From a virus, in UHGV virus genome UHGV-0206901: DNA of 26,230 nucleotides; one strand, 5' to 3'. Under the pieces are notes generated by a model. That model was not told the origin of the DNA. It saw only the letters and a program-made list of their open reading frames with translations, and ran no database searches. A program made the position numbers and the translations under genes. Of the stretch, positions 822 through 26,230 are shown piece after piece. Each line of letters opens with the position of its first letter. The stretch's first letter is position 1.

Positions 822-1307
822 ATGACACTGACAGAGAACTTCATTCGTGATGCGATACAGCTTGACAGCGGTGCAGAGGTCATGTACGGCAGCAATCAGA
901 TCTATGACACCTATCCCTGCCGCTTTCCGACTGTTGAATTTCAGCTCATGGCAACGGATACCCTTGTGGAGGTTGCAGACCGCATCCGCATGGAGAAGGG
1001 CTACTTTCCGATGCATCCGTGGGACGGACGCACGGATGATGTGGACTGCGATGGTTGGTACGACTTTTATATCGGGATCAGCAAGCTCCCCGGCGACCAT
1101 CAGCAGTGCCAGCTTGACAGCAGTATCAGCTTTGTTGTTGTCAATTCCGATTCGGATGACAACGAGGATATGTACAACATCGACCTGACGGAATCCGAAA
1201 AGGAATATGTGTATGAGATACTGAACCGACAGTGCCGGAGGTATCACGGCAAGGACTGCGCCGAACTTCTGGCAGAGTCTGAAAAGGAGCTGATGGATAC
1301 AGCATGA
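822..1307 (+). CDS. Hypothetical protein
   Basis: ORF track 714-1307; internal ATG at 822 is preceded by GGAGGAGG (808-815) with a 6-nt spacer; stop overlaps the nrdD start (ATGA at 1304-1307); no recognisable motif. Confidence 0.5.
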   Translation: MTLTENFIRDAIQLDSGAEVMYGSNQIYDTYPCRFPTVEFQLMATDTLVEVADRIRMEKGYFPMHPWDGRTDDVDCDGWYDFYIGISKLPGDHQQCQLDSSISFVVVNSDSDDNEDMYNIDLTESEKEYVYEILNRQCRRYHGKDCAELLAESEKELMDTA

Positions 1308-3451
1308 GAATTATCAAGCGAAACGGCGCAGAGGTGCCGTATGACTGTGAAAAGATCAGAGCCGCAATTACTGCGGCAAACGATGAGATGGATTCCGGCG
1401 ACAGGATCACAGATACAGTAATCGGCTTTATCGTCGGCAGAGTCGAGCAGCGGTGTGAGACGCTTGCAAGACCTGTCCATGTCGAAGAAGTCCAGGACAT
1501 GGTTCTAGATGAGCTTGACAAAGCCGAGGCTTACAAACTTGCACGGCACTACAGCGAATACAGACTCCTGCATGAACAGCAGCGCAGGATGAATACCACG
1601 GACGGAAAAATTCTCAGCTTGCTGGAACGCAATAACGAGGAGGCAAAGCAGGAGAATGCGAACAAGAACCCGATCATCAACAGCACGCTCCGGGACTATA
1701 TGGCAGGCGAAGTCAGCAAGGACATCTGCCGTCGCTTCCTGTTCCCAGCAGATGTGATCGCCGCCCACGATGACGGCATCATCCATGTACACGATCTGGA
1801 CTACATCGCAGAGCCGATGCACAACTGCTGTCTGGTCAATCTTGAAGATATGCTCCAGAACGGTACGGTCGTATCCGGTACAATGATCGAAAAGCCGCAC
1901 AGCTTTTCCACTGCGTGTAACATTGCTACACAGATCATTGCGCAGGTCGCGTCGAACCAGTACGGCGGGCAGACAATTTCTCTGGCACATCTTGCGACTT
2001 TTGTGGATGTCAGCAGACAAAAGATCAGAGCCGAGGTATCTGAGGATGTGAACTGCGACTGCGGCGCAAAGCTGTCGGCGGAAGAACTCGACCATATCGT
2101 TGAGAAGCGTGTGCGCCGGGAAGTCAAGCGTGGTGTACAGACCATCCAGTACCAGATAAACACACTGCTCACCACCAACGGGCAGACTCCGTTTGTGACG
2201 GTGTTTATGTATTTGGACGAGGTGTCGGAGGGACAGACCAGAGATGACCTTGCGCTCATTATCGAGGAAACGCTGCTTCAGCGTATCGAGGGTGTGAAAA
2301 ATGAGAAGGGCGTCTGGATCACCCCGGCATTCCCGAAGCTTATCTATGTTCTCGATAAGGGTAATATCACCGAGGACAGCCGCTATTGGTATCTTACGAA
2401 GCTTGCCGCAAAATGCACGGCAAAGCGTATGGTTCCTGACTATATCTCCGCCAAGATCATGAAGAAGCTGAAGGGTGATGTGTATGCCTGCATGGGCTGC
2501 CGCAGTTTCCTCACGCCTTCGGACGATCACAAGTATTACGGCAGATTCAATCAGGGTGTTGTCACGCTGAATCTGGTGGATGTGGCGTGTTCTTCCAACG
2601 GTGATATGGACAAATTCTGGCAGCTTCTGAATGAACGCTGCGACCTATGCTTCAAGGCTCTGATGTGCAGGCATGAGCGGCTGAAAGGTACGCCGTCTGA
2701 TGTTGCGCCGATCCTCTGGCAGAACGGTGCATTGGCACGACTCGGCAAGGGTGAAACAATCGACAAGCTGCTGTATAACAATTACAGCACCATTTCACTC
2801 GGCTATGCCGGCATCGCAGAAATGACCTACCGCATGACGGGCTGTTCGCATACGGAGCCGGACGGAAAAGTATTTGCACTTGCAGTGATGAAATTCCTGA
2901 ATGAGAAGTGTGCGGCATGGAGAGAGCAGACAGGGATTTCTTTCTCCCTGTACGGCACGCCGATGGAATCTGTGACCTACAAATTCTCTCAGTGCTTACA
3001 GCGCAGACACGGTATTATCCCTCATGTGACGGATAAAAACTACATCACAAATTCGTATCATGTTCACGTTACTGAGCCGATTGACGCATTCAGCAAGCTG
3101 ACATTCGAGTCCGAATTTCAGGAGCTTTCACCGGGCGGTGCGATCAGCTATGTGGAAGTGCCGAATATGCAGCACAATATTCCTGCGGTACTTGCACTGA
3201 TGCGGCATATCTACGAAACGATTTTGTACGCCGAACTGAACACCAAATCTGATTACTGTCAGGCTTGCGGCTATGACGGCGAAATACAGATCGTGGAGGA
3301 GGACGGCAAGCTGATCTGGGAATGCCCGAACTGCGGCAACCGCGATCAGCGGACACTGAATGTATGCCGCCGCACCTGCGGTTACCTCGGAACGCAGTTC
3401 TGGAATCAGGGGCGCACCGCTGAGATCAAAGACCGGGTGATGCACCTGTGA
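1304..3451 (+). CDS. nrdD: Anaerobic ribonucleoside-triphosphate reductase (class III RNR)
   Basis: 715 aa; N-terminal ATP-cone-like region (MRIIKRNGAEVPYDCEKIRAAI); C-terminal zinc ribbon CQACG...CPNCG; glycyl-radical motif RRTCGYLG close to the C-terminus; followed directly by the activase gene. Confidence 0.93.
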   Translation: MRIIKRNGAEVPYDCEKIRAAITAANDEMDSGDRITDTVIGFIVGRVEQRCETLARPVHVEEVQDMVLDELDKAEAYKLARHYSEYRLLHEQQRRMNTTDGKILSLLERNNEEAKQENANKNPIINSTLRDYMAGEVSKDICRRFLFPADVIAAHDDGIIHVHDLDYIAEPMHNCCLVNLEDMLQNGTVVSGTMIEKPHSFSTACNIATQIIAQVASNQYGGQTISLAHLATFVDVSRQKIRAEVSEDVNCDCGAKLSAEELDHIVEKRVRREVKRGVQTIQYQINTLLTTNGQTPFVTVFMYLDEVSEGQTRDDLALIIEETLLQRIEGVKNEKGVWITPAFPKLIYVLDKGNITEDSRYWYLTKLAAKCTAKRMVPDYISAKIMKKLKGDVYACMGCRSFLTPSDDHKYYGRFNQGVVTLNLVDVACSSNGDMDKFWQLLNERCDLCFKALMCRHERLKGTPSDVAPILWQNGALARLGKGETIDKLLYNNYSTISLGYAGIAEMTYRMTGCSHTEPDGKVFALAVMKFLNEKCAAWREQTGISFSLYGTPMESVTYKFSQCLQRRHGIIPHVTDKNYITNSYHVHVTEPIDAFSKLTFESEFQELSPGGAISYVEVPNMQHNIPAVLALMRHIYETILYAELNTKSDYCQACGYDGEIQIVEEDGKLIWECPNCGNRDQRTLNVCRRTCGYLGTQFWNQGRTAEIKDRVMHL

Positions 3452-3915: not shown

Positions 3916-4229
3916 GAGCCAGACTGAGACCGCCAGGAGATGCCGTTCGCTGCGATGCCTGCGGATGTGCATTTGTTCCGGAAACACTGACGCAGCGTGA
4001 GGGTGAGATCGAATACAGCTTCTTCCGCTGCGACTATTGCGGCAAGGCGTATCTCGTATCCGTTACGGATGCAGACCTCTGCAAGGATATCCGCAGATAC
4101 AGAACGCTTGCGGAAAAGCACAAGATCAAGCCCCTGAGTGAACAGTCGCTCCGCGAGATGGCTGCGCTGAAAGAGCAGAACTTAAAACGAGCCGCAAAGC
4201 TGCGGCAGTTGTACTATGTGGAGGGATGA
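3912..4229 (+). CDS. Zinc-ribbon protein, function unknown
   Basis: 105-aa ORF whose ATG overlaps the nrdG stop; two CxxC pairs (CDACGC, CDYCGK); basic C-terminal tail. Confidence 0.5.
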   Translation: MRARLRPPGDAVRCDACGCAFVPETLTQREGEIEYSFFRCDYCGKAYLVSVTDADLCKDIRRYRTLAEKHKIKPLSEQSLREMAALKEQNLKRAAKLRQLYYVEG

Positions 4230-4230
4230 G

Positions 4231-5514
4231 ATGAAGACAGCAGAACTTCGTGTGATCCCTGTCACGGAGCTGAAGCCTGCGGCATATAACCCGCGCAAAA
4301 AGCTGAAGCCCGGCGACAAGGAATACGAAAAGATCAAAAACAGCATCGAGGAATTCGGCTTTGCCGATCCGCTGGTAGTCAACGCCGACATGACCATCAT
4401 CGGCGGGCATCAGCGACTGACCGTAGCGATGGCGCTCGGATACACCGAGGTACCCTGTGCGGTGGTGGACATCGACAAGGTCAGAGAAAAGGCGCTGAAC
4501 ATTGCGCTCAACAAGATCACCGGCGCATGGGACGAGAGCCTTCTGGCTGAACTGTTGCAGGACATTCAGGACAGCGACTTCGACCTCGGAAAGACCGGCT
4601 TTGATCCGCCGGAGATCGAGCAGCTTTTCAATCAGGTACACAATAAAGACATCAAGGAAGATGACTTTGATATTGAAGAAGAGCTGAAACAGCCGACCTT
4701 CTCAAAACTCGGTGACCTGTGGATTCTGGGCAAGCACCGTATCGTCTGCGGTGACAGCACCAAGTCGGAAACCTACGAGCTGCTTATGAACGGTGAAAAA
4801 GCAAATCTCCTGCTGACCGATCCGCCGTACCTCGTAGCATACAGCAATACCTCCGGCAGCATCAAGAACGATGACCTTTCGGATAAGGAAGGCTATGAAT
4901 TCCTGAAAAGCGCATTTGCCTGTTTCAAAGAGAACCTTGCAGATGATTCTGCGGTGTATGTTTTCTACGCGACATCAAAATCGAGGGTGTTCTATGACGC
5001 TTTCGAGGATGCCGGATTCCGTGTTTCTTGCGGATTGGTCTGGCGCAAGGACAGGCTTGTGCTGTCGAGGACGGACTATCAGCAGAACTTCGAGCCTGTG
5101 ATCTACGGCTGGAAAAAGAACGGCAAGCACACATGGTACGGTGACCGTAAGCAGACCACCTGCTTTGACTTCGACCGTCCGAAAAGCTCCAAAGCCGAGG
5201 GTGAGGGACATCCGACTGCAAAGCCTGTACCGCTGATGGCATATCTCATCAAGCAGTCCACCATGACAAACGGCATTGTGCTGGACGGCTTCCACGGTTC
5301 CGGTTCTACCATGATCGCCTGTGAACAGCTCGACCGAAAATGCAGAGCTGTAGAATTGGATGAAAAGTTTGTGGACGTTCAAGTGAAGCGGTATATCAAA
5401 TTCCGCGAGGGCAAGTACGATGATGTGTATGTCATCCGTGACGGGCAGAAGCTTTCCTTCGATGAAGCGGTGGCAGCGATGCCGACAGCAGAGGGTGGTG
5501 ATACGAATGGGTGA
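4231..5514 (+). CDS. ParB-like nuclease domain fused to a DNA amino-methyltransferase (probably N6-adenine; beta-class motif order)
   Basis: ATG at 4231 preceded by GGAGGGA; N-terminal ParB/Srx-like region (ELKPAAYNPRK...IIGGHQRL); central LLLTDPPY (motif IV) precedes GFHGSGST (motif I), the beta-class order. Confidence 0.85.
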   Translation: MKTAELRVIPVTELKPAAYNPRKKLKPGDKEYEKIKNSIEEFGFADPLVVNADMTIIGGHQRLTVAMALGYTEVPCAVVDIDKVREKALNIALNKITGAWDESLLAELLQDIQDSDFDLGKTGFDPPEIEQLFNQVHNKDIKEDDFDIEEELKQPTFSKLGDLWILGKHRIVCGDSTKSETYELLMNGEKANLLLTDPPYLVAYSNTSGSIKNDDLSDKEGYEFLKSAFACFKENLADDSAVYVFYATSKSRVFYDAFEDAGFRVSCGLVWRKDRLVLSRTDYQQNFEPVIYGWKKNGKHTWYGDRKQTTCFDFDRPKSSKAEGEGHPTAKPVPLMAYLIKQSTMTNGIVLDGFHGSGSTMIACEQLDRKCRAVELDEKFVDVQVKRYIKFREGKYDDVYVIRDGQKLSFDEAVAAMPTAEGGDTNG

Positions 5515-6310
5515 ACTGAAACCTCTGCTTCATGTGGTCTCCTTCAGCGGCGGGAAAGACAGCACTGCGATGCTCCTGAAGATGTTAGAAATGGGAATGC
5601 AGGTTGATCTGGTGCTGTTTTGCGATACCGGATTAGAATTCCCGGCACTGTATGACCATGTACACAAAGTCGAACAGGATACCGGCGTGAAAATCACGAC
5701 TGTAAAGAGCGAAAACACATTTGAGTATCTCATGCTCCACAAGCCGATCAAGCGGAAGAAACCGGAACTGCGCGGCAAGACCGGTTACAGTTGGGCGGGA
5801 CCGCTGATGCGGTGGTGTACAAACCTTCTGAAAACGGTGCCTCGTGAGAAGTTTCTCAGCGAACTGCGGAAAAATTACGATGTGATCGAGTACATCGGCA
5901 TCGCCGCCGATGAAACGGAACGCATCACGCACAAATGCAGCTGCCGACCGAATGTCCGTCTGCCGCTTGTGGAGTGGGGCATGACCGAAGCTGACTGCCT
6001 GCAATACTGCAGGGAACGCGGCTATGACTGGGGCGGTCTGTATGAGAAATTCGGACGGGTATCCTGTTGGTGCTGTCCGCTGCAGCCGCTGAACGAGCTG
6101 CGTGTCCTCTACTACGATTTTCCCGACCTCTGGAAACAACTCAGGGAATGGGATGATGCAACATGGCGCACCTTCAAGCCCGGATGGTCAGTCCGGAAAC
6201 TGGAGGCGCGTTTTGATTTTGAGCTGGAATGGCAGACGGACGGCAATCAGCTCGGCACAAAGGAATTCCACAAAGCCCTGAAAAAGAGACTGGAGGATGT
6301 CGATGGCTGA
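5507..6310 (+). CDS. PAPS-reductase-like PP-loop protein (DndC-like fold family), possible DNA-modification accessory enzyme
   Basis: Internal ATG at 5507 with upstream GAGGGTGGTGA; PP-loop motif SFSGGKDS near the N-terminus; C-terminal cysteine cluster CWCCP; 8-nt overlap with the upstream methyltransferase gene and 8-nt overlap with the downstream one. Confidence 0.75.
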   Translation: MGELKPLLHVVSFSGGKDSTAMLLKMLEMGMQVDLVLFCDTGLEFPALYDHVHKVEQDTGVKITTVKSENTFEYLMLHKPIKRKKPELRGKTGYSWAGPLMRWCTNLLKTVPREKFLSELRKNYDVIEYIGIAADETERITHKCSCRPNVRLPLVEWGMTEADCLQYCRERGYDWGGLYEKFGRVSCWCCPLQPLNELRVLYYDFPDLWKQLREWDDATWRTFKPGWSVRKLEARFDFELEWQTDGNQLGTKEFHKALKKRLEDVDG

Positions 6311-7082
6311 TGTGAAATGTGAGCTGTATCACGATAACTTCCAGAACTTCAAATCCTACTGCATCCCAAAAGCACAGCTCGTCATTGCTGACATTCCGTA
6401 CAACATCGGCGGCGACTTTTATGCCAGCCGTCCCGACTGGTATGTGAACGGTGACAATCAGAACGGTGAAAGCAGCAAAGCGCACAAGGCTGCATTCCAC
6501 ACGGATTACACCTTCAACATCGCTGAATACTTCGCCTTCTGTAACCGGCTGCTCAAAAAGGAGCCGTCCAAAGGTGAGAAGGATGCTCCCTGCATGATTG
6601 TATTCTGTGCCTTTCAGCAGATACCCGAGGTCATCCGGCAGGCGGAGAAATACGGCTTCAAGAAGTATCAGTTTTTGTGCTTTATGAAGAATTACAGTCC
6701 GCAGGTGCTGAAGGCGAACATGAGGATCGTGGGCGCAACGGAGTTTGCTCTGGTGCTGTATCGGGGAAAGCTGCCGAAGTTCCGCAATACCGATGCATAC
6801 GGCAAGAGGCACATGATCTTCGACCATTTTGACTGGATGCGGGACGGCAAGGATATCCCGAAGATACATCCTTCGCAGAAGCCGGTAAATCTCCTGAAAC
6901 GGCTGATCGGGATATTTACCGACGAGGGTGATGTGGTCATCGATCCCTGCGCCGGTTCCGGCTCAACGCTGCGTGCGGCGAGGGAGCTTGGCAGACACAG
7001 CTACGGCTTTGAAGTCAGCCGAGATTTTTACAACAAAGCCTGTGAGCAGATGCTTGGGGAGGTGCAGGATGACAAAGTATGA
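6303..7082 (+). CDS. DNA amino-methyltransferase (N6-adenine or N4-cytosine), divergent motif IV
   Basis: ATG at 6303 is 6 nt after GGAGG; IADIPYN (variant DPPY-type motif IV) near the N-terminus and DPCAGSGST (motif I, AdoMet binding) near the C-terminus. Confidence 0.7.
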   Translation: MADVKCELYHDNFQNFKSYCIPKAQLVIADIPYNIGGDFYASRPDWYVNGDNQNGESSKAHKAAFHTDYTFNIAEYFAFCNRLLKKEPSKGEKDAPCMIVFCAFQQIPEVIRQAEKYGFKKYQFLCFMKNYSPQVLKANMRIVGATEFALVLYRGKLPKFRNTDAYGKRHMIFDHFDWMRDGKDIPKIHPSQKPVNLLKRLIGIFTDEGDVVIDPCAGSGSTLRAARELGRHSYGFEVSRDFYNKACEQMLGEVQDDKV

Positions 7083-7284
7083 GTGCGCCATTGTGACGGC
7101 ATACACAGATATCTCGATGCTGTGCGGCGATGATCTGAAATATCTGTATGACTATCTTTCCGGCTTTATCGGCAGACCGGTGTATACACACGAGATTCCT
7201 GCGGTGGCTGCGGCTTACAGAGACAAGATCAGAGAGGACTTCCTCGATCTGTGCAGGAACGCAAAGGAGGCGGATGATGGATAA
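7069..7284 (+). CDS. Small hypothetical protein
   Basis: 71-aa ORF starting at an internal ATG of ORF 6928-7284, overlapping the upstream methyltransferase stop; no recognisable motif; the 11-nt overlap with the next gene suggests translational coupling. Confidence 0.4.
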   Translation: MTKYECAIVTAYTDISMLCGDDLKYLYDYLSGFIGRPVYTHEIPAVAAAYRDKIREDFLDLCRNAKEADDG

Positions 7285-9487
7285 GAAACACTTGACCCTC
7301 GGCAGCCTGTTTGACGGCTCGGGGGGGTTTCCGCTTGGCGGCATCCTCGCAGGGATCGAGCCGAAGTGGAGCAGCGAAATTGAACCTTTTCCGGTGCTTG
7401 TCACGCACAAGCGACTGCCTGGGGTGAAGCACTACGGCGATGTATCCACACTGAACGGTGCAGAGCTTCCGCCGGTGGATATTATCACCTTCGGCAGCCC
7501 TTGTCAGGATCTGTCCATTGCTGGAAAGCGTGCCGGAATCCATGACGGTGATCGGTCGAACCTGTTCTTTCAGGCGATCCGTATCATCAAAGAAATGAGG
7601 GATGCAACAAATGGACAATACCCGCGATACTGCGTCTGGGAGAATGTCCCCGGCGCTTTCTCCTCCCACGGAGGAGACGATTTCAAAGCTGTCCTCGAAG
7701 CAGTTATCGGAATTAAAGAAGAAGGGATCGAGGTGCCTGCGCCTGAAAATCACAGATGGGCAAAATCAGACGTATATCTGGGAGACGGATGGAGCGTGGC
7801 TTACCGAGTTTTCGATGCTCAATACTGGGGTGTCCCCCAACGCAGAGCAAGAATCTACCTTGTCGCAGATTTTGCTGGCGGAAGTGCCGGAGAAATACTA
7901 TTTAAGTCCGAAGGCGTGTCTGGGTATACTCCGCAGGGCTTCCGTTCGTGGCAAGGAACTGCCGGAGGTGCTGAAGAAAGCACTGGAGCGACAGGCTGGC
8001 GGTCTGACGCTGGAGGTGGAACCCTCTGCGTAAACTGTCAGGGCACGGCAGGTGTCGGTATCACAGAAGATAAGGCACTGGCACTTGTCGCACAGGATCA
8101 CGGGAATCATCCAGCCGTTCTTGCCGCAGGTTTTTCCACAGAGCATAGTGCAAAAGCACGAAGCATCGGCTACGAAGAGGAAGTATCTCCTACACTGAGA
8201 GCTGGTGTTGTTCCGGCGGCAATGGAGCTTCAAAGCTATCCCGTTGAAAATCATCCTGCGGATTCGAGAGTCAGGGTGCGTGAGGACGGAAAGTGTCAGG
8301 GGCTTACAGGCAGAATGGGAACAGGCGGCGGAAACGTACCGCTTGTAGCAGAACCGATTACGCTAAAAATCCGCAGTGGTGGCGGAAATGGTGGTAAGGG
8401 CGCTATCTGGCAAACAGATAAATCCGCAACTCTTGCAACCAATAATGACCAGACGCTTTTTCAGCCGGAGGTCAAGGCTTTCGGTGTATGCAGCAAGCAC
8501 TCCAATGCGATGATGTCCGACAATCCGCACAGCGGATTCTATGAGGCGACCACAAGCAGAACGCTCGACCAAAGTGGTGGAAATTCTGTGACATCGAATC
8601 AGGGCGGCATCTGCGTGGTAGCACCTGCGCCTGAAACCTTCGATGTGCGTTTCACATCAGACGGTACAAAAAACGCTCGTGGGCATTGTTACCCGACAGA
8701 CATTTCCCGATGCCTTGATACGAGCGAGGCGAACCCGGACAGCAATCACGGAGGAGTTGCGGTGGTGGCTCTCGAACCGGGGGCGGCATCCCGTATCGGC
8801 GGTCATGTATACAGTGACGGCAAAAGCGGCACGCTCCGTGCAAATGCCGGAGACAATCAGCAGGCTGTTGTGGTAGCCGAGAAGGAGACCTATGCACTGC
8901 AAGGCTCGATGATCGGTCGCGCCGATCAGAACGGACCGCAGGGTGATGGTATCAATGAAGATGTGTGCTTTACGCTGAACACAACAGACAGGCATGCTGT
9001 CGCAGCACCGGATGCCGATCACTACAGCACAAGCAAGAATTCTCACCACACAGTCGCCGCACATGAACAGGCAAACACGCTGGTCGCATCCGACTGGAAG
9101 GATCCTCCGCTTGTGAACGACCTTCCGAATGACGAGCCGGTATATATCGTTCGTCGTCTGACTCCGGTGGAGTGCGCCAGATTGCAGGGATTCCCCGACT
9201 GGTGGTGTGCCGACCTTGCGATTCCCGATCCGACCGATGAGGAGATCACCTTCTGGATGGAAGTATGGGAAACTTGGAGACAGATCACAAATCCCAAGGG
9301 AAAGCCGAAAACGGAAAAGCAGATCCGCAAATGGTTGGCTGATCCGTACACGGACAGTGCCGAGTACAAGTTATGGGGCAACGGTGTCTCAGAGCCCGTT
9401 GTGTTCTTCGTGCTATCCGGCATTGCCTGGGCGGCACAGAATTCTGAAACTAATGCAGCAAATTGTGAACATTCTGATACTATGTAA
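7274..9487 (+). CDS. DNA cytosine-5 methyltransferase with an exceptionally long variable (target-recognition) region, possibly multispecific
   Basis: ATG at 7274 preceded by AAGGAGG (7264-7270); motif I LFDGSGG, motif IV GSPCQDLS, motif VI ENVPG, motif VIII QRRARIYLV, C-terminal RRLTPVECARLQGFPDWW; about 480 aa lie between motifs VIII and IX. Confidence 0.9.
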   Translation: MMDKKHLTLGSLFDGSGGFPLGGILAGIEPKWSSEIEPFPVLVTHKRLPGVKHYGDVSTLNGAELPPVDIITFGSPCQDLSIAGKRAGIHDGDRSNLFFQAIRIIKEMRDATNGQYPRYCVWENVPGAFSSHGGDDFKAVLEAVIGIKEEGIEVPAPENHRWAKSDVYLGDGWSVAYRVFDAQYWGVPQRRARIYLVADFAGGSAGEILFKSEGVSGYTPQGFRSWQGTAGGAEESTGATGWRSDAGGGTLCVNCQGTAGVGITEDKALALVAQDHGNHPAVLAAGFSTEHSAKARSIGYEEEVSPTLRAGVVPAAMELQSYPVENHPADSRVRVREDGKCQGLTGRMGTGGGNVPLVAEPITLKIRSGGGNGGKGAIWQTDKSATLATNNDQTLFQPEVKAFGVCSKHSNAMMSDNPHSGFYEATTSRTLDQSGGNSVTSNQGGICVVAPAPETFDVRFTSDGTKNARGHCYPTDISRCLDTSEANPDSNHGGVAVVALEPGAASRIGGHVYSDGKSGTLRANAGDNQQAVVVAEKETYALQGSMIGRADQNGPQGDGINEDVCFTLNTTDRHAVAAPDADHYSTSKNSHHTVAAHEQANTLVASDWKDPPLVNDLPNDEPVYIVRRLTPVECARLQGFPDWWCADLAIPDPTDEEITFWMEVWETWRQITNPKGKPKTEKQIRKWLADPYTDSAEYKLWGNGVSEPVVFFVLSGIAWAAQNSETNAANCEHSDTM

Positions 9488-9649: not shown

Positions 9650-10771
9650 ATGAAAACTTATGCAATGATCATTGGAAACCGCAAGGAACTCACAAAGAGA
9701 ATCGAGGCACTCACCGGAGAGCGCAGCGTATACACCTTCATGCCGAGATGCGCCTATGAGATCGGGGCATTCGCAGTCGAGAAGGACGGCACACTTACGG
9801 CACAGGACGATGCCAACCAGAGCGTGATCGACACCCTGAGAGCCGAGGGTATGATCGGTGATGAGATCATCGCAGAGAGCATCGAGGCAGTCGAGCCGGA
9901 GCAGACCGATGAGACCGCAGAGCCGGAACAGCCTGCACCGCCCGTAAGCACCGATGAATGGGACGATGATGAGGATGACGACGATGAGAACAGCGTCGAG
10001 GGCGAGAATGCGGAAGCGGAAGAGCCGGAGGAGTCCGAAGAAAATGCCGATAAGTCGGAGCCTGCCGCAGAGCCAGAAGCCGCACCTCCTGCGACCGAGG
10101 ATGCCTGGGATGATGAACCGGAGGATGAACCCGGCGACGAGCCGGAAGAAACCACCGAGCTTCCTGAACCGCTGACCGCAGAGATCAGCTTCCCGCTGAG
10201 CCATCACACGGTGCAGAGCCTTACGAACCTCATCTGCATGATCCACTCCCGCGGCGCACTTCTCAGCAAGGCGACCGGCGGAGAATTCTTCGCAGACAAG
10301 AGCCTCGCCGATGCGATCCTCGATGACAAGACCTTCCGCAGCATCCACGAGCTTATCGCCTACATCAGAGTATGGGAGGAAACGAATCCCGAACTGAAGG
10401 GCATCCGTTTCGCCGATGACAAGCTGATCTTTGACGGCTTCGGTGCAGCACAGGATGCCGAGACGGTGCAGACCTTCACCAAGCTCGCCGCAGCCATGAA
10501 CAGGATGGCGATCACGCAGAAACGTGTGCAAGCAAAGGATGTCGATGACAGCAACGAAAAGTACGCACTCCGCATCTGGCTGATCCGCCTTGGGCTGAAC
10601 GGTGCTGACTTCAAGGCTGACCGCAAGCGCCTCATGACTCCGCTTTCCGGACACACCGCATTCCGCAACGATGAGGAGCGTGAACGCTGGGAGGCAAAGC
10701 AAAAGGCAAAGCGTGATGCTGCCAGAACCGAACTGACCGAGGAGGATGAAAACGATGCAGTTTCCGAATGA
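9650..10771 (+). CDS. Amidoligase-like paralog, probably catalytically degenerate, with a ~95-aa acidic low-complexity insertion
   Basis: 373 aa; the C-terminal half aligns by eye with the downstream amidoligase-like ORF (TVQSLTNL vs TPQTLRNL; KYALRIWLIRLGLNGADF vs KFAMRTWLMRMGFIGDEF); the GVEIE and HCH motifs of the paralog are absent; residues ~80-172 are D/E/P-rich. Confidence 0.55.
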   Translation: MKTYAMIIGNRKELTKRIEALTGERSVYTFMPRCAYEIGAFAVEKDGTLTAQDDANQSVIDTLRAEGMIGDEIIAESIEAVEPEQTDETAEPEQPAPPVSTDEWDDDEDDDDENSVEGENAEAEEPEESEENADKSEPAAEPEAAPPATEDAWDDEPEDEPGDEPEETTELPEPLTAEISFPLSHHTVQSLTNLICMIHSRGALLSKATGGEFFADKSLADAILDDKTFRSIHELIAYIRVWEETNPELKGIRFADDKLIFDGFGAAQDAETVQTFTKLAAAMNRMAITQKRVQAKDVDDSNEKYALRIWLIRLGLNGADFKADRKRLMTPLSGHTAFRNDEERERWEAKQKAKRDAARTELTEEDENDAVSE

Positions 10772-11003
10772 ACGACAGCTCAAAGCCTTGCGGGAGCGTT
10801 ATCCCGAAGGCACCCTTATCCGACTGAAGCACATGGACGATCCCTACGCACCAGTGCCGCCCGGAACAATTGGCGAGGTTCAGATGGTCGATGACGGCGG
10901 CAACATACACATGGTCTGGCAGAACGGCAGAACGCTTTCTCTTATAGAAGGCGTGGATGATTTCCAGGTCATTTCTGACCGCAATGGGGGCCCCGGAAAA
11001 TAA
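10755..11003 (+). CDS. Small hypothetical protein
   Basis: ATG at 10755 is 8 nt after GGAGGA and overlaps the upstream gene end; 82 aa, glycine-rich beta-like sequence (GTIGEVQMVDDGGNIHMVWQNG). Confidence 0.5.
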   Translation: MQFPNERQLKALRERYPEGTLIRLKHMDDPYAPVPPGTIGEVQMVDDGGNIHMVWQNGRTLSLIEGVDDFQVISDRNGGPGK

Positions 11004-11116
11004 GAGATCCTATTCCATTGTATCCGAGTATACCATAGAATTTCAAGTATATCAAGTGTACACATACACCAGATATGAGCAATGTATTTTCCTCGATATT
11101 CTGTGGTTTTAGCGGC

Positions 11117-11145
11117 TTGCTATATCCTCCGAAAGACGGTAACAT
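11117..11145 (+). promoter_or_regulatory. Sigma-A-type promoter cassette 2 (TTGCTA, 17 bp, TAACAT) with conserved leader
   Basis: -35 at 11117-11122, -10 at 11140-11145; leader GTGACACAACGGAAGGGCAAATGCCCACCGAAAAACCGAATCGGAGGA; ATG at 11201. Confidence 0.6.
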
Positions 11146-11200
11146 GTGACACAACGGAAGGGCAAATGCCCACCGAAAAACCGAATCGGAGGATACCAAA

Positions 11201-12145
11201 ATGACTGAGAAAACCGCACAGCAGATCAACAGAATGAAGGAGCAGACCATCGGGGTTGAGATCGAGATGAACAACATCACCCGCAAGGCTGCCGCAAAGC
11301 TCGCCGCTGACTTCTTCGGCACGAACCGCTACGAGGACACGGCCTGCCGCAACGGCTACTACACTTGGAGCGCATGGGATGCACAGGGGCGCGAGTGGAA
11401 ATTCCAGCGGGACGTGAGCATCGCAGGCTCCGACAGCGAAAAGTGCGAACTGGTCACACCGATCCTGCACTACGCAGACATCGAAACCCTGCAGGAGCTT
11501 GTGAGAAAGCTCAGGAAGGCAGGAGCGCGCAGTGATTACACGCGGGGATGTGGAGTCCACTGCCATATTGGAGCCCAGGGACACACACCGCAGACCTTGA
11601 GAAACCTCGCAAACCTGATGGCAAGCCACGAAACCCTGATCGCCGAGGCAATCAGAGTAGACCAGAGCAGAATGCGCCGCTACTGCAGAACAGTTGACCC
11701 GAGATTCCTTGAACAGCTCAACCGCAAAAAGCCCACCACGATGGCACAGCTTGCGGACATCTGGTACGGCGCACAGGGCTGCGAATACGGCAGAACCCAC
11801 CACTACAACGACAGCCGCTATCACATGCTCAACCTCCACGCTACCTTCACCAAAGGCACGGTCGAGTTCAGACTTTTCCAGTTCGCACCGCCCTCAAACG
11901 GCAAGCAGAACGGGCTCCACGCAGGCAAGCTCAAGAGCTACATTCAGCTCTGCCTCGCAATGAGCCAGATGGCAAAGGACCTGCGGAGCGCCAGCCCCAA
12001 GGAGCAGCAGAAGGAAAACAAAAAGTTCGCCATGCGGACTTGGCTGATGAGAATGGGATTCATCGGGGATGAATTCGCAACGGCGAGAGAGGTCCTCACT
12101 GAGAACCTTACGGGCGACAACAGCTTCCGCTTCGGCAGATCTTAA
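11201..12145 (+). CDS. Putative amidoligase (glutamine-synthetase-like / gamma-glutamyl-cysteine-ligase-like ATP-dependent amide ligase family)
   Basis: 314 aa; N-terminal IGVEIEMNN strand with paired glutamates and a central GCGVHCHIG motif, both typical of Amidoligase_2-type enzymes as I recall them; own promoter cassette; followed by an AIG2-like gene. Confidence 0.65.
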   Translation: MTEKTAQQINRMKEQTIGVEIEMNNITRKAAAKLAADFFGTNRYEDTACRNGYYTWSAWDAQGREWKFQRDVSIAGSDSEKCELVTPILHYADIETLQELVRKLRKAGARSDYTRGCGVHCHIGAQGHTPQTLRNLANLMASHETLIAEAIRVDQSRMRRYCRTVDPRFLEQLNRKKPTTMAQLADIWYGAQGCEYGRTHHYNDSRYHMLNLHATFTKGTVEFRLFQFAPPSNGKQNGLHAGKLKSYIQLCLAMSQMAKDLRSASPKEQQKENKKFAMRTWLMRMGFIGDEFATAREVLTENLTGDNSFRFGRS

Positions 12146-17074: not shown

Positions 17075-17548
17075 ATGGCTCAGAGAGGCAGAAAACCGAC
17101 GCCGACAGCAATCAAGGAACTGGAAGGCAATCCGGGCAAGCGTCCGCTGAATGATGCAGAGCCGAAGCCGGAACGCAAGGCACCGCCCTGTCCGAAATGG
17201 CTGGAGCCCGAAGCAAAAAAGGAATGGCGCAGGCTGTCAAAGCAACTGGAGCAGATTGGTGTGCTGACCGAGGTCGATCAGGCGGCATTCGCATCCTACT
17301 GTCAGGCATACGCACGATGGAAAGAAGCCGAGGAATTCATGACACAGCACGGCACGATCGTGAAAACAAAATCAGGTTACTGGCAGCAGGTGCCGCAGGT
17401 ATCCATTGCACAGACCTATCTGAAGATCATGAATAAGATCGCAGAACAGTTCGGTCTGACTCCTGCCGCAAGAAGCAGGATCACCGCAGGTGCGGATATG
17501 AAGGACGCTGCCGTTGACGATATGGATGAACTTCTCGGAGGTGACTGA
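17075..17548 (+). CDS. terS: Terminase small subunit
   Basis: AAGGAG 8 nt upstream of the ATG at 17075; 157 aa; basic N-terminus (RGRKPTPTAIKELEGNPGKRP) and overall pattern typical of P27-family small terminases; sits directly upstream of, and overlaps, the large terminase. Confidence 0.8.
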   Translation: MAQRGRKPTPTAIKELEGNPGKRPLNDAEPKPERKAPPCPKWLEPEAKKEWRRLSKQLEQIGVLTEVDQAAFASYCQAYARWKEAEEFMTQHGTIVKTKSGYWQQVPQVSIAQTYLKIMNKIAEQFGLTPAARSRITAGADMKDAAVDDMDELLGGD

Positions 17549-20214
17549 TGGCGAGAACGGCAAAGGCAAGAGAAAGACCTGCCAACTATCCGAAACTGAA
17601 GGATTATAAACCGACACGCTTTATGCTGCCGGAATCGCACTACGATGCGGCAAAGGCTGACCGAGCTGTGCGGTTCATCGAGAATCTCTGCCATACCAAA
17701 GGACGCTGGGCAGGAAAGCCGTTCTGGTTGCTGCCGTGGCAGGAACAGATCATCCGGGATATTTTCGGCATCGTCAAAGAGGATGATACCCGCCAATTCC
17801 GCACAGCTTATGTCGAAATTCCAAAGAAAAATGGGAAGCAGCTTGCACTGGATACACCGATCCCGACTCCGCAGGGATTCACCAATATGGGAGATCTGAA
17901 GGTCGGAGATACAGTATTCGATGAAAACGGCATTCCGTGCCATGTGGTTGCGAAAAGTCCTGTGGATGATACAGAGCAAGCCTACAAGCTGACCTTCAAG
18001 GACGGCAGCTCGATCATCGCCGGAGAACGGCATCTGTGGAACTGTCAGTATATTTACGGCAAACGCAAGGATGTTCTCTGGACGACCGGCGAGATCTATC
18101 GCAGGACTTCAGAATACAGACGGCGATTCTCAGACCGACCGCAGTCAAAGCGGGATTCTCTGATCCGAATTCCGGTGTGCGGTGTCCTTCAGACAGAAGC
18201 GGCAGTTTTACCGATTGATCCGTATCTGTACGGCTACTGGCTCGGAAACGGTAATGTGACCATGCCGGAGATCACTGTTCGGACGGAGGATGTCGAGGAT
18301 ATCATCTCGAATATTCCGTATAAGGTACACAACCGTTATCCGCAGAAATGCGGCGGCAGTGAGATCATAAAGTACAATGAACTGAAAGCAGTACTACTTG
18401 ACAGCTTCCGTGAAAAGAAGATCCGACCAGAATATCTGAGGGCATCCGCAGAGCAGAGATGGGCATTACTGCAAGGGCTTATGGATTCGGACGGCTGTAT
18501 CGGTGAACGCAAAGGGCAAAGTGTGTATGTCACAACGCTGCGAGAGCTGGCGCTTTCCGTCAGAGAACTGCTGTGGTCGCTCGGTATCAAAAATGCAGTG
18601 AAATGTGAGCCTTCTACTCGGCATGGGTGGCCGACTGGAGAGATTTTGTATATCGTCCGGTTTACTACCTTTGACGATCAGCCGACATCAAGACTGAAAC
18701 GAAAGTACACACGCACACGGGCGCGGGTGAAAGAAACTCGCTCCTGTTTTCATTATTTACTGGACATTCAGCCTGTGGATCATCCTGTGAAAATGCAGTG
18801 TATTCAGGTGGATAGTCCTAGCCACCAATATCTTGCTGGAACATCGTTTGTGCCTACGCACAACAGTGAGCTTGCAGCCGCAATTGCGCTGTATCTGCTC
18901 TACGCTGACAACGAGCCATCCGCCGAGGTCTACGGTGCTGCCGCCGACCGACAGCAGGCATCCATTGTATTCGATGTCGCCAAAAGAATGGTTGAGATGA
19001 CACTGGCACTTCTGAAACGCTCAAAAATCATGGCGGCGACAAAGCGTCTGGTGAATTACAGCAATGTCGGTTTCTATCAGGTGCTTTCGGCGGAGGTCGG
19101 AACAAAACACGGTCTGAATGTATCTGGGCTTGTGCTTGACGAGCTTCATGTTCAGCCGAACCGTAATCTTGTGGACGTTCTCACAAAGGGATCCGGTGAT
19201 GCCCGTACTCAGCCGCTGTACTTCCTGATCACCACAGCCGGCACTGACCGAAACAGCATCTGCTATGAATACCACACCAAGGCAAAAGACATCCTCGAAG
19301 GGCGGCGTATCGATCCGTCATTCTATCCTGTCATTTACGGTCTGGATGACGGCGACGACTGGAATTCAGAGGAATCGTGGTACAAGGCAAATCCGTCTCT
19401 CGAATACACAATTACCATAGACCGTGTGCGGGATGCCCATCGTGAAGCACTGACAAATCCTGCGGAAGAAAATGTATTCCGTCAGCTTCGTCTTGATCAG
19501 TGGGTTGGCAGTGCGGTTGCATGGGTGCCGGAGCATATCTACGACAAAGGCAATATACCAATCAATCCGGAGTCTCTGTACGGACGCGAGTGCTATGCAG
19601 GACTGGACCTTTCCAGTACATCTGATATCACGGCATTTGTTCTGGTATTCCCACCGTTGTATGAGGGTGATAAATACATCGTTGTACCCCACTTCTGGCT
19701 GCCGAGGGAAACACTTGACCTGCGTGTACGGCGAGACCATGTTCCCTACGATGTATGGGAGCGCATGGGGCTATTTCATATCACCGAGGGCAATGTGGTG
19801 GACTACAACTTCGTGCGGAAAACGATCAATGAGCTGCACACGATGTATAACATCAAGGAAATTGCAGCAGACCGCTGGAATGCCACACAGCTTATCACCG
19901 ACCTGCAGGGTGACGGTTTTACCGTTGTCCCGATGGGCATGGGCTTCAAGGATATGTCGCCACCGATGAAGGAGCTTTACAAGCTGCTGCTTGAGGGCAA
20001 GTTTATCCATGGCGGAAATCCTGTCCTGCGATGGATGGCAGGAAATGTGGTCGCTGAAATTGACGCGGCGGAAAATATCAAGCCGTCCAAGAAAAAGTCT
20101 ACAGAGAAAATTGACGGCATCGTAGCATGGATCATGGCACTTGACCGCTGCATCCGCCACGAAATGCAGGGCAGTGTCTATGACGAACCCGGCCACGATC
20201 TTGTGGTCATCTGA
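17548..20214 (+). CDS. terL: Terminase large subunit, interrupted by an in-frame intein at the Walker A (P-loop) site
   Basis: 888-aa ORF; N-extein ends ...EIPKKNGK and C-extein begins SELAAAIALYLLYADNEPSAEVYGAAADRQQ, which together rebuild a canonical PKKNGKS P-loop; C-terminal nuclease-domain-like region; followed by the portal gene. Confidence 0.92.
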   Translation: MARTAKARERPANYPKLKDYKPTRFMLPESHYDAAKADRAVRFIENLCHTKGRWAGKPFWLLPWQEQIIRDIFGIVKEDDTRQFRTAYVEIPKKNGKQLALDTPIPTPQGFTNMGDLKVGDTVFDENGIPCHVVAKSPVDDTEQAYKLTFKDGSSIIAGERHLWNCQYIYGKRKDVLWTTGEIYRRTSEYRRRFSDRPQSKRDSLIRIPVCGVLQTEAAVLPIDPYLYGYWLGNGNVTMPEITVRTEDVEDIISNIPYKVHNRYPQKCGGSEIIKYNELKAVLLDSFREKKIRPEYLRASAEQRWALLQGLMDSDGCIGERKGQSVYVTTLRELALSVRELLWSLGIKNAVKCEPSTRHGWPTGEILYIVRFTTFDDQPTSRLKRKYTRTRARVKETRSCFHYLLDIQPVDHPVKMQCIQVDSPSHQYLAGTSFVPTHNSELAAAIALYLLYADNEPSAEVYGAAADRQQASIVFDVAKRMVEMTLALLKRSKIMAATKRLVNYSNVGFYQVLSAEVGTKHGLNVSGLVLDELHVQPNRNLVDVLTKGSGDARTQPLYFLITTAGTDRNSICYEYHTKAKDILEGRRIDPSFYPVIYGLDDGDDWNSEESWYKANPSLEYTITIDRVRDAHREALTNPAEENVFRQLRLDQWVGSAVAWVPEHIYDKGNIPINPESLYGRECYAGLDLSSTSDITAFVLVFPPLYEGDKYIVVPHFWLPRETLDLRVRRDHVPYDVWERMGLFHITEGNVVDYNFVRKTINELHTMYNIKEIAADRWNATQLITDLQGDGFTVVPMGMGFKDMSPPMKELYKLLLEGKFIHGGNPVLRWMAGNVVAEIDAAENIKPSKKKSTEKIDGIVAWIMALDRCIRHEMQGSVYDEPGHDLVVI
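17839..18864 (+). mobile_element. Intein (~342 aa) with an embedded double-motif LAGLIDADG homing endonuclease, inside terL
   Basis: Block A-like LALDTPIPT...GDLKVGDTVF; block B GERHLW; two LAGLIDADG motifs (LYGYWLGNGNV and LLQGLMDSDGCI); terminal ...FVPTHN followed by Ser +1. Confidence 0.8.
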
Positions 20215-25184: not shown

Positions 25185-25832
25185 ATGGCACTTCAGAAAA
25201 ACAAAGTCAAGTTCGGTCTGAACAAGGTCCACTACGCGAAGATCACCGCATGGAGCGATGAGGGTGTGCCCACCTTTGCAACTCCGGTGCGCCTGCCTGG
25301 TGCGGTGTCGCTTTCTATCGATGCCAACGGCGAGAACGAGAACTTTTTTGCCGATAACGGCGTGTACTACGTCATCAACAACAATGCTGGCTACGAGGGT
25401 GACCTTGAGGTGGCGCTCATCACCACCGATTTCGCCACTACGATCCTCGGTGAGCAGCTCGACAGCAAGGGTGTTCTTGTGGAGCGTAACGATGCCGAGA
25501 CCTCGCAGTTTGCACTGCTCTTCGAGTTCAACGGCGACAAGAACCACATCCGTCATGTGCTGTACTGCTGCTCGGCATCCCGTCCCTCGACCGAGAGTTC
25601 CACTACGGAGGAGTCCACTGAGGTCAAGACGGAGACTCTCTCGATGAAGGCAACGGCACTTCCTGACGGTCTGGTGAAGTCCAAGACCTGTGAAAGCACC
25701 GACCAGACCACCTATGACAACTGGTATAATGCGGTGTATATCCCGACCGCTGCGACCACAAACAACAGCACCGGCACACGCTCTGCATCTTCCACCAAGA
25801 GCAGCACTGCCGCATCCACTACAACTGACTGA
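25185..25832 (+). CDS. Major tail protein with Ser/Thr-rich C-terminal region
   Basis: 215 aa; position before the tail chaperone; N-terminal two-thirds look like siphovirus major tail proteins; the C-terminal ~85 aa are S/T-rich. Confidence 0.7.
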   Translation: MALQKNKVKFGLNKVHYAKITAWSDEGVPTFATPVRLPGAVSLSIDANGENENFFADNGVYYVINNNAGYEGDLEVALITTDFATTILGEQLDSKGVLVERNDAETSQFALLFEFNGDKNHIRHVLYCCSASRPSTESSTTEESTEVKTETLSMKATALPDGLVKSKTCESTDQTTYDNWYNAVYIPTAATTNNSTGTRSASSTKSSTAASTTTD

Positions 25833-25849: not shown

Positions 25850-26230
25850 ATGGCTATCAAGAAAATCATCACTGTTGACGGCATCGAGGTTCCTTTCAAG
25901 GCGAGCGCAACCCTGCCTCGCCTGTACCGCGCCAAGTTCCGCAAGGACATCTTCAAGGATTTCGCCGCACTGAAGGACTCTGTGGACGAGAGCGATGAGC
26001 AGGATTCCGGTCTCGGCATCGAGAGCCTTGAGGTCTTCGAGAATATCGCATGGACGATGGCGAAGCACGCCGATCCGGAGAACGTTCCCGACAGCCCGGA
26101 CGACTGGCTCGAACAGTTCAACTGCTTCTCGATCTATGAGGTGCTGCCGCAGCTTTTCGAGCTGTGGGGCATGAATCTGGAGACACAGGCAGAGTCAAAA
26201 AAAAATCTCGCCCAGTTGACCGCGAGATGA
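25850..26230 (+). CDS. Tail assembly chaperone (G-like), with a slippery site for a probable -1 frameshift
   Basis: 126 aa, acidic; position between the major tail protein and where the tape measure gene is expected; a 9-A run sits 8 codons before the stop. Confidence 0.65.
   Translation: MAIKKIITVDGIEVPFKASATLPRLYRAKFRKDIFKDFAALKDSVDESDEQDSGLGIESLEVFENIAWTMAKHADPENVPDSPDDWLEQFNCFSIYEVLPQLFELWGMNLETQAESKKNLAQLTAR
26197..26203 (+). other. Candidate -1 programmed ribosomal frameshift heptamer A_AAA_AAA
   Basis: In the zero frame the codons are tcA AAA AAA aat (X_XXY_YYZ pattern); the -1 frame stays open to the window end, while the 0 frame stops at 26228-26230. Confidence 0.5.

What the first reader, a model, noticed from the sequence alone, without database searches (positions are those of the whole stretch)
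26190..26230. Slippery A-run near the 3-prime end of the tail chaperone gene
A run of nine A residues (26197-26205) gives an A_AAA_AAA heptamer in the zero frame, 8 codons before the stop. The -1 frame stays open to the end of the window. This fits the conserved programmed frameshift that yields the G and G-T chaperone products in tailed phages; the extended product would continue beyond the window.
Basis: partly seen in the sequence, partly recalled or inferred. Interest (0 to 1): 0.5.

Follow-up and report, generated by a model that had tools for sequence, protein, structure and literature searches.

The report
Tail chaperone G/G-T frameshift site
The run of nine A's near the end of this Ruminococcus-type prophage gene is a real, strongly conserved recoding site of the ordinary kind that lets tailed phages make a short and a long tail-assembly chaperone from one gene. 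It is a correct but unsurprising finding.

Summary
A9 lies at 26197-26205 and gives an in-phase A_AAA_AAA. Eight sense codons follow before the stop at 26228-26230. The -1 frame is open from 26140 to the window end.

In 14 relatives that carry the identical 126-aa protein, the -1 frame runs 161 nt past the window end and then stops. This predicts a 180-aa fusion: residues 1-118 plus a 62-aa 'T' extension.

Across 141 distinct junction sequences from 173 related phage and prophage loci, 132 keep an A7-A9 run at the same two Lys codons, with the T ORF in the -1 frame. Neither Lys codon is AAG in any of 140 distinct junctions, although AAG is the commoner Lys codon in these genes. A T-frame Arg codon upstream of T's ATG is conserved with a free wobble base.

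The gene lies between the major tail protein and the tape measure gene. Its predicted fold matches proteins annotated as tail assembly chaperones.

- No conserved stimulatory RNA structure was found.
- Ribosomal slippage and RNA-polymerase slippage on the A-run cannot be told apart from sequence.
- T has a conserved ATG in an ATGA overlap but no Shine-Dalgarno, so some independent T cannot be excluded.

This is a new member of a known kind, and interest is low.

The parts
25185..25832 (+). Major tail protein gene (215 aa), immediately upstream of the chaperone gene
   Evidence: phrog_88 'major tail protein', E=3.9e-62; ORF.
25850..26230 (+). Gene G: 126-aa tail assembly chaperone candidate (phrog_709, unannotated). 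It has its own strong Shine-Dalgarno (GGAGGG).
   Evidence: ORF; phrog_709 E=1.5e-38, with no Pfam or NCBIfam hit. AF2 model pLDDT 83, pTM 0.77. The top three BFVD fold matches are 'Tail assembly chaperone protein', E 2.5e-6 to 7e-5. Shine-Dalgarno.
26197..26205 (+). A9 slippery run. It contains the in-phase heptamers A_AAA_AAA (26197-26203) and A_AAA_AAT (26200-26206).
   Evidence: Both Lys codons (six bases) are invariant in 140 distinct junction sequences, and the run as a whole is nearly so. An A7-A9 run is present in 132 of 141 junctions.
26203..26229 (+). First nine codons of the -1-frame 'T' extension (K S R P V D R E M), overlapping the last codons of G. The rest of T (53 codons plus stop) lies beyond the window.
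   Evidence: phrog_3033 E=2.6e-19 for the downstream 54 aa. The T-frame Arg codon upstream of the ATG is conserved with a free wobble base.
26227..26230 (+). ATGA overlap: an ATG in the -1 (T) frame overlapping G's TGA stop. No Shine-Dalgarno precedes it.
   Evidence: ATG is present in 137 of 140 distinct junctions; the others have ATA twice and CTG once. It is absent in the R. gnavus phage phiRgPS_6.
26205..26228 (+). Lineage-specific 7-bp hairpin (AUCUCGC ... GCGAGAU) directly after the run. It is probably not a conserved stimulator.
   Evidence: The MFE fold of the 103-nt stretch has z = -2.24. RNAalifold finds no consensus structure in 14 homologues. 64.3% of cells are paired against 63.8% in shuffles.

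Best explanation
Gene 25850-26230 encodes the 'G' tail assembly chaperone of a siphovirus-type prophage from a Ruminococcus/Oscillospiraceae host, related to the Candidatus Heliusvirales gut phages.

Most ribosomes read through the A-run and terminate at 26228-26230, giving the 126-aa G protein. A minority slip back one base on A_AAA_AAA(AA), with tRNA-Lys re-pairing on AAA codons. They then read K-S-R-P-V-D-R-E-M-T-T-P-L-F... in the -1 frame and terminate 161 nt beyond the window. The result is a 180-aa G-T fusion: G residues 1-118 plus a 62-aa T domain.

By analogy with lambda gpG/gpGT, G and the G part of G-T would coat the tape measure protein, and the T part would recruit the major tail protein, so the slippage rate would set the G:G-T ratio.

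What is shown: the site, its phase, the downstream ORF in close relatives, the nucleotide-level conservation of the run, the conservation of the -1 arrangement, and the synteny. What is inferred: that slippage actually occurs, its efficiency, that it is ribosomal rather than transcriptional, and the protein-protein roles.
For: - Site and phase.
- Downstream T ORF in the -1 frame in all 14 loci carrying the identical G protein. The closest, L002, is 95.65% identical to the last 10.4 kb of the window.
- The fused G-T query matches 59 phage records, 45 of them over at least 80% of its length. All 40 listed records match as two pieces, meaning a frame change.
- Fifteen annotated phage genomes show the order major tail protein, then G, then T, then (inserted genes), then tape measure. 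The tape measure protein is confirmed in L002.
- 132 of 141 distinct junctions have an A7-A9 run at the same codons with T in -1.
- Both Lys codons are AAA in all 140 distinct sequences, with entropy 0 at their wobble positions. Other third positions of G carry 0.8-1.8 bits. AAG outnumbers AAA 115:69 in the window's structural genes.
- In most relatives a TAA closes the -1 frame immediately 5' of the run (TC TAA AAA AAA C), so the -1 ORF opens exactly at the slip site.
- In the 24-nt overlap, the most variable column (1.66 bits) is the wobble base of an invariant T-frame Arg codon, which is position 2 of a G-frame codon. The T frame is therefore under selection upstream of its ATG.
- Relatives lack that ATG: ATA in L020 and L163, CTG in L103, and no start at all in phiRgPS_6. 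No Shine-Dalgarno precedes T's ATG, whereas most of the neighbouring structural genes have one.
- The direction of the shift is conserved, which is the Antonov et al. 2013 criterion for ribosomal frameshifting (PMC3711429).
- A_AAA_AAC, the form in most relatives, is a reported g-t shift site in the haloarchaeal virus HCTV-2 (PMC5009743).
- The G fold matches annotated tail assembly chaperones.
Against: - No experiment or proteomic data exists, and the window itself stops at G's stop codon. The extension is therefore read from relatives of 87-100% identity, not from this contig.
- No conserved downstream stimulatory structure was found, and I saw no conserved upstream Shine-Dalgarno-like element in the junction sequences. 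That point rests on inspection only, with no formal test.
- The ATGA overlap with an ATG in the T frame is conserved in 137 of 140 junctions, so T could also be made on its own.
- A8-A9 runs are long enough for RNA-polymerase slippage, which would give the same protein.
- The T extension (62 aa) is shorter than lambda's.
Confidence: 0.8

Rival explanations
1. The product is the same but the machine differs. The G-T mRNA arises by transcriptional slippage (programmed transcriptional realignment). RNA polymerase stutters on the A9/T9 tract and adds one A, so standard translation of the A10 transcripts yields G-T. Ribosomal slippage would be minor or absent.
For: The run is 9 A here and 8 A in most relatives. 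These lengths lie in the range reported for transcriptional realignment: An with n>7, the Thermus dnaX A9, and IS elements (PMC3711429). In E. coli reporters, total frameshifting rose with run length: 10% for A7, 40% for A9 and 63% for A11 (same paper). No conserved ribosome-stimulating structure was found. A few relatives have T in the +1 frame or in frame, differing only in run length (L039, L164, L166, L023, L038, L135), and polymerase slippage could tolerate that.
Against: The shift direction is -1 in about 94% of distinct junctions, and Antonov et al. take a conserved direction as a sign of ribosomal frameshifting. Every run, including the A7 ones (L021, L024, L113), is in a phase that gives a valid X_XXY_YYZ heptamer. 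A7 is short for efficient polymerase slippage. The rare off-frame cases may simply be homopolymer assembly errors.
Confidence: 0.2
2. There is no recoding. T is a separate 54-aa protein made by termination-reinitiation at the ATGA overlap, and the A-run is simply how a conserved Lys-Lys happens to be encoded.
For: ATGA is conserved in 137 of 140 distinct junctions. Gene callers and GenBank annotators list T as its own CDS. Non-frameshift routes to chaperone pairs have been proposed for T4-like phages (Vladimirov et al. 2022, known to me only from its title in the reference list of PMC10274946).
Against: - Neither Lys codon is AAG in any of 140 sequences, against a 62% AAG background. This needs nucleotide-level selection.
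- The T-frame Arg codon upstream of the ATG is conserved with a free wobble base.
- The ATG is replaced by ATA or CTG in three lineages and is absent in phiRgPS_6, where T still follows in -1 directly after an A9 run.
- No Shine-Dalgarno precedes the ATG.
- Conservation of ATGA is also explained by a conserved Met-Thr in T.
Confidence: 0.07
3. The run is a DNA-level mutable homopolymer (phase variation or decay), or an incidental feature with no programmed role.
For: Assemblies of near-identical phages carry different run lengths:
- A7: P0066/L186, an in-frame 179-aa fusion, seen in two JGI samples.
- A8: P0014/L188 and L039.
- A10: L038.

Against: A9 is overwhelmingly dominant, since the exact 126-aa protein is indexed in 924 blocks. 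The variants are rare and sit mostly on short contigs, as expected for homopolymer errors. The arrangement is stable from Ruminococcus to Streptococcus and Gardnerella phages.
Confidence: 0.03

Closest known systems
Phage lambda gpG / gpGT and the conserved tail-chaperone frameshift of long-tailed dsDNA phages (Levin, Hendrix & Casjens 1993; Xu, Hendrix & Duda 2004, 2013, 2014; summarised in PMC5009743)
   Same: There are two overlapping ORFs between the major tail and tape measure genes, with the second in the -1 frame. A slippery heptamer lies a few codons before the stop of the first ORF. The arrangement is conserved despite low sequence similarity. No strong stimulatory structure is evident.
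   Different: The slippery site is a homopolymeric A8/A9 run (A_AAA_AAA here, A_AAA_AAC in most relatives) rather than G_GGA_AAG. T is only 62 aa. T carries a conserved ATG in an ATGA overlap. In this lineage cargo genes separate T from the tape measure gene. There is no detectable sequence similarity to lambda G or T.
g-t frameshift of haloarchaeal siphovirus HCTV-2 (A_AAA_AAC; Sencilo et al. 2013, as cited in PMC5009743)
   Same: It has the same heptamer as the majority form of this family (TCT AAA AAA AAC) in the same gene context.
   Different: It has an archaeal host and unrelated proteins. It was not compared at the sequence level here.
Lactococcus phage p2 ORF12 (PDB 3d8l) and B. subtilis prophage YqbN (PDB 3klu). 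I know these as tail assembly chaperones from memory; the search output does not name their function.
   Different: The scores lie within the noise of helical bundles, so homology is not established.
Thermus thermophilus dnaX A9 tract and IS-element A-runs (transcriptional slippage; Larsen et al. 2000 and Baranov et al. 2005, as discussed in PMC3711429)
   Same: A run of 8-9 A inside a coding region gives a second, frame-shifted product.
   Different: In those systems the RNA heterogeneity has been shown, and the shift direction varies among orthologues. Here the direction is conserved and no RNA data exist.

Membership tests
G/G-T tail assembly chaperone recoding cassette (lambda-type) | Two consecutive ORFs located between the major tail protein gene and the tape measure gene | tested here: met
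   The major tail protein gene (phrog_88) ends 17 nt before G. In relatives G and T are followed by the tape measure gene. In the window's lineage a YczE-like gene is inserted between T and the tape measure gene.
G/G-T tail assembly chaperone recoding cassette (lambda-type) | Second ORF overlaps the 3' end of the first and lies in the -1 frame | tested here: met
   T is in the -1 frame in 133 of 141 distinct junctions, 132 of them with an intact run. In all 14 loci with the identical G protein, the -1 frame continues for 64 codons from the first A of the run.
G/G-T tail assembly chaperone recoding cassette (lambda-type) | In-phase slippery sequence within the overlap, conserved among relatives | tested here: met
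   A_AAA_AAA lies at 26197-26203. The form A_AAA_AAN occurs at the same codons in 132 of 141 junctions. Both Lys codons are invariant in 140 distinct sequences.
G/G-T tail assembly chaperone recoding cassette (lambda-type) | Second ORF has no translation start of its own | tested here: inconclusive
   An ATG is present in an ATGA overlap in 137 of 140 junctions. It has no Shine-Dalgarno, it is replaced by ATA or CTG in three lineages, and it is absent in phiRgPS_6. The T-frame codons upstream of it are under selection.
G/G-T tail assembly chaperone recoding cassette (lambda-type) | A G-T fusion protein is made at a low, fixed ratio to G and is needed for tail assembly; neither protein is in the virion | not testable with these tools
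   This needs reporter assays, proteomics or genetics.
G/G-T tail assembly chaperone recoding cassette (lambda-type) | G binds the tape measure protein and T binds the major tail protein | not testable with these tools
   No interaction data exist, and complex prediction was not attempted.
Tail assembly chaperone protein families (Pfam Phage_TAC_*, Phage_p2_ORF12; PHROG 'tail assembly chaperone') | Significant sequence or fold similarity of G to a recognised chaperone | tested here: inconclusive
Canonical -1 programmed ribosomal frameshift signal | X_XXY_YYZ heptamer in the zero frame | tested here: met
Canonical -1 programmed ribosomal frameshift signal | Stimulatory element: a downstream hairpin or pseudoknot 5-9 nt after the heptamer, or an upstream Shine-Dalgarno-like sequence | tested here: not met
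   There is no consensus structure and no covariation for the local hairpin. That hairpin starts only 2 nt after the heptamer and is specific to the window's lineage. Upstream third-codon positions vary freely. Pseudoknots were not searched.
Programmed transcriptional realignment (RNA polymerase slippage) | Homopolymeric A/T run of about 8 or more bases | tested here: met
   The run is A9 here, A8 in most relatives and A7 in a few.
Programmed transcriptional realignment (RNA polymerase slippage) | Orthologues use both shift directions (criterion of Antonov et al. 2013) | tested here: not met
   About 94% of distinct junctions need -1. The few +1 or in-frame cases differ by a single A and may be errors.
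Programmed transcriptional realignment (RNA polymerase slippage) | Transcripts heterogeneous in run length | not testable with these tools
   No RNA data are available here.

The most novel reading that the evidence does not exclude
The chaperone pair of this very widespread gut-prophage family may be expressed mainly by RNA-polymerase slippage on the A8/A9 tract rather than by ribosomal frameshifting. The conserved ATGA start may add a third product, free T, so the family would make G, G-T and T. That would be a new expression mode for the otherwise textbook G/G-T system.
Probability: 0.2. Interest if true: 0.45.

Novelty: new member of a known kind. Interest (0 to 1): 0.2.

Why it matters
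The practical value is mainly in annotation. Two PHROG families listed as 'unknown function' (phrog_709 and phrog_3033) can be read as the G and T parts of a frameshifted tail assembly chaperone. The G family has more than 8000 members in public data, across prophages of Ruminococcus, Oscillospiraceae, Lachnospiraceae, Streptococcus and Gardnerella, including Candidatus Heliusvirales gut phages. None of the 15 GenBank phage records inspected annotates the joined product.

Conceptually it adds one more family to a long-known rule. The only open point of some interest is whether an A8/A9 tract without any stimulatory structure works through the ribosome or through RNA polymerase.

Tried and rejected
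- Pfam, NCBIfam and PDB sequence searches for G, T and G-T found nothing significant.
- RNAalifold on 14 divergent junctions gave no consensus structure. An explicit test of the window's 7-bp hairpin showed no covariation, with 64.3% of cells paired against 63.8% in shuffles. I therefore rejected it as a conserved stimulator.
- Rfam and tRNA scans of the window found nothing.
- The Heliusvirales paper (PMC11283538) does not mention frameshift, chaperone or tape measure.
I redid it with database proteins.
- I considered a second frameshift from T into the overlapping YczE-like ORF (53-nt overlap, frame 0). I rejected it because that gene is a variable cargo insert. It is absent from most relatives, where T is followed directly by the tape measure gene or by other small genes.
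- I considered the in-frame 179-aa proteins (A7) as evidence for natural fusions. They are too rare to weigh, and sequencing error cannot be excluded.

Full report
**1. The observation**

The last 40 bases of the window read GAG TCA AAA AAA AAT CTC GCC CAG TTG ACC GCG AGA TGA in the frame of ORF 25850-26230 (126 aa). The A-run is 26197-26205, nine bases long. Position 26197 is a third codon position, so A_AAA_AAA (26197-26203) is in phase. Eight sense codons follow before the TGA, which is the final triplet of the window. The -1 frame is open from 26140 to the end and reads ...GRVKKKSRPVDREM.

This run is the only homopolymer of 8 or more bases on either strand of the window, and the only A or T run of 7 or more. 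A single A9 in 26 kb is not improbable on its own, since 18 of 100 shuffles contain one. The case for function therefore rests on context and conservation.

**2. Context**

The window is a phage or prophage. Its left part carries NrdD, several DNA methyltransferases and an amidoligase. Then comes a standard HK97-like morphogenesis module: TerS, TerL, portal, ClpP-type protease, major capsid, head-tail adaptor, head closure, neck and tail-terminator proteins, and the major tail protein at 25185-25832. The 126-aa gene follows the major tail protein gene after 17 nt and has a strong Shine-Dalgarno. It matches only phrog_709 ('unknown function', E=1.5e-38). It has no Pfam, NCBIfam or PDB sequence match.

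**3. What lies beyond the window**

The exact 126-aa protein is indexed in 924 blocks of public assemblies. Ten long contigs (L001-L010) were fetched. The closest, L002, is 95.65% identical to the last 10.4 kb of the window and colinear with it. In all ten, and in four IMG/VR contigs with the identical G protein, the -1 frame counted from the first A reads as follows and then stops:

KKKSRPVDREMTTPLFLLRCVQIGL(T/S)L(S/T)DLDLLTIGMVNE...

That is 64 codons, and the stop lies 161 nt past the window end. A tandem slip on A_AAA_AAA would therefore give a 180-aa product: G residues 1-118 plus 62 residues. The downstream 54 aa match phrog_3033, also listed as 'unknown function' (E=2.6e-19).

A variable slot then follows. 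It holds a YczE-like membrane-protein gene (NF052291, E=4.5e-35), sometimes split and sometimes accompanied by HNH or NrdD-fragment genes. After it comes a 1485-1519-aa tape measure gene, then Dit (the distal tail protein) and the other tail-tip genes.

**4. Conservation**

tblastn with the fused 180-aa sequence against 50,697 phage genomes hit 59 records. Forty-five were covered over at least 80% of the query. Every one of the 40 listed records matched as two pieces, meaning a frame change.

Fifteen records were inspected. They are Ca. Heliusvirales gut phages of Ruminococcus, Coprococcus, Clostridium, Agathobacter-type hosts, Faecalimonas and Oscillospiraceae; a Terrisporobacter phage; Streptococcus Javan prophages; Gardnerella phage vB_Gva_AB1; and R. 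gnavus phage phiRgPS_6. All show major tail protein, G, T, (inserted genes), tape measure. None annotates a joined CDS. phiRgPS_6 calls the G homologue 'tail assembly chaperone protein'.

Adding 80 IMG/VR loci and 80 GTDB genome loci, mostly Ruminococcus and Oscillospiraceae genomes, gave 173 usable loci and 141 distinct junction sequences.

| Class | Distinct junctions |
|---|---|
| A7-A9 run at the same two Lys codons, T in the -1 frame | 132 |
| Interrupted run (AAAATAAAC, L097) | 1 |
| In-frame fusions with one extra A (L038, L135) | 2 |
| One A fewer, T in +1 (L039, L164, L166, L023) | 4 |
| Rearranged (L176, L184) | 2 |

The majority form is TCT AAA AAA AAC. There the -1 frame is closed by TAA immediately before the run, so the -1 ORF opens exactly at the slip site. 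The window's form, TCA AAA AAA AAT, differs by the two flanking substitutions. These lengthen the run to A9 and make a perfect A_AAA_AAA.

**5. Nucleotide-level selection**

I computed column entropies over 140 distinct junctions. Upstream of the run, variation peaks at third positions of the G frame (0.8-1.8 bits). Downstream of the overlap, it peaks at third positions of the T frame.

The two Lys codons are AAA in every sequence, with 0 bits at both wobble positions. This is despite AAG being the commoner Lys codon in the window's structural genes (115 AAG to 69 AAA).

Within the 24-nt overlap, the most variable column (1.66 bits) is the wobble base of a T-frame Arg codon (CGN/AGG). The first two bases of that codon are nearly invariant. 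The same column is the second position of a G-frame codon, which varies between Ala, Asp, Val and Gly. The T frame is therefore under purifying selection upstream of its ATG. That is expected if ribosomes enter it at the A-run, and not if they start at the ATG.

**6. The ATG question**

T's first Met codon overlaps G's stop (ATGA) in 137 of 140 junctions, and annotators call T a separate gene. Four points weigh against the ATG as the main entry.
- It has no Shine-Dalgarno, unlike most of the neighbouring structural genes.
- It is ATA in L020 and L163 and CTG in L103.
- In phiRgPS_6, G stops directly after an A9 run, and T has no start codon at all.
- A conserved Met-Thr in T would by itself fix the ATGA.

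Some reinitiation cannot be excluded.

**7. Stimulatory elements**

The window's lineage has a 7-bp hairpin, 26205-26211 paired with 26222-26228, directly after the run (z = -2.24 for the 103-nt stretch). It starts only 2 nt after the heptamer. It is not found by RNAalifold in 14 homologues and shows no covariation. Upstream wobble positions vary freely, and I saw no conserved Shine-Dalgarno-like stimulator there by eye. The signal therefore seems to be the A-run alone. To my knowledge this matches the modest context dependence of lambda G-T (Levin et al. 1993, not re-read here).

**8. Is G a tail assembly chaperone?**

**9. Mechanism and rivals**

- Best reading (0.8): recoding at the A-run yields G (126 aa) and G-T (180 aa). 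Within that, I favour ribosomal -1 slippage, because the direction is conserved (the criterion of Antonov et al. 2013) and every run, including the A7 ones, is in a valid phase.
- RNA-polymerase slippage on A8/A9 (about 0.2 as the main route) would give the same protein. It is compatible with the lack of a stimulator and with reported run-length effects of 10%, 40% and 63% for A7, A9 and A11 in E. coli reporters.
- Independent T with no recoding: about 0.07.
- DNA-level phase variation or no function: about 0.03. The rare A7, A8 and A10 assemblies are most simply homopolymer errors.

**10. Comparison with what is known, and novelty**

This is the conserved G/G-T tail-chaperone frameshift of long-tailed phages (Xu et al. 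2004; review PMC5009743). The majority heptamer, A_AAA_AAC, has been reported for the g-t site of haloarchaeal virus HCTV-2.

The differences are minor:
- a homopolymeric site;
- a short T;
- a conserved ATGA;
- cargo genes between T and the tape measure gene;
- no similarity to curated chaperone families.

The finding is a new member of a known kind. Its value is annotation of phrog_709 and phrog_3033 in a very abundant gut and rumen prophage group. I score interest at 0.2.

Noticed in passing
window 17548-20214: The terminase large subunit is 888 aa, with a LAGLIDADG_3 domain (residues 303-370) inserted in the ATPase region. Close relatives (L004, L009) have a 546-aa TerL without it, which suggests an intein with a homing endonuclease.
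   Followed up: partly
L003 2541-4334 and 7504-9360; L004 4154-5956; L010 4047-5837: In relatives that carry the identical G protein, group II intron reverse-transcriptase/maturase ORFs (RVT_1, Intron_maturas2, GIIM) interrupt the major capsid, prohead protease and major tail protein genes.
   Followed up: no
L001-L010, about 10490-11250 (just beyond the window end): There is a variable cargo slot between the T ORF and the tape measure gene. It holds a YczE-like membrane protein (DUF6198; NF052291, E=4.5e-35) that is intact in some relatives and split by a stop in L002, L003 and L010. L001 also has a NUMOD4/HNH_3 endonuclease gene, and L001 and L010 have an NrdD fragment. Its start overlaps the end of T by 53 nt.
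   Followed up: partly
L186 1848-1854; L188 560-567; L038 and L039 at about 1848: Near-identical phages are assembled with A7 (an in-frame 179-aa G-T, seen in two JGI samples), A8 (a 122-aa product with T in +1) or A10 (an in-frame 180-aa G-T) instead of A9. These are either homopolymer sequencing errors or real length polymorphism.
   Followed up: partly
window 4216-9487: A cluster of three DNA methyltransferase genes: ParB-N plus N6/N4 (432 aa), N6/N4 (261 aa) and a 779-aa C5 enzyme. A PAPS-reductase-like gene lies between them, and NrdD (1304-3451) is upstream.
   Followed up: no
L023 (Streptococcus phage Javan105 and three near-identical records): The run is A7 and T lies in the +1 frame. 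G ends early at a TAG, 11 nt before the position corresponding to T's first Thr codon. This is either an indel in a decaying prophage or an assembly error shared by four records.
   Followed up: no
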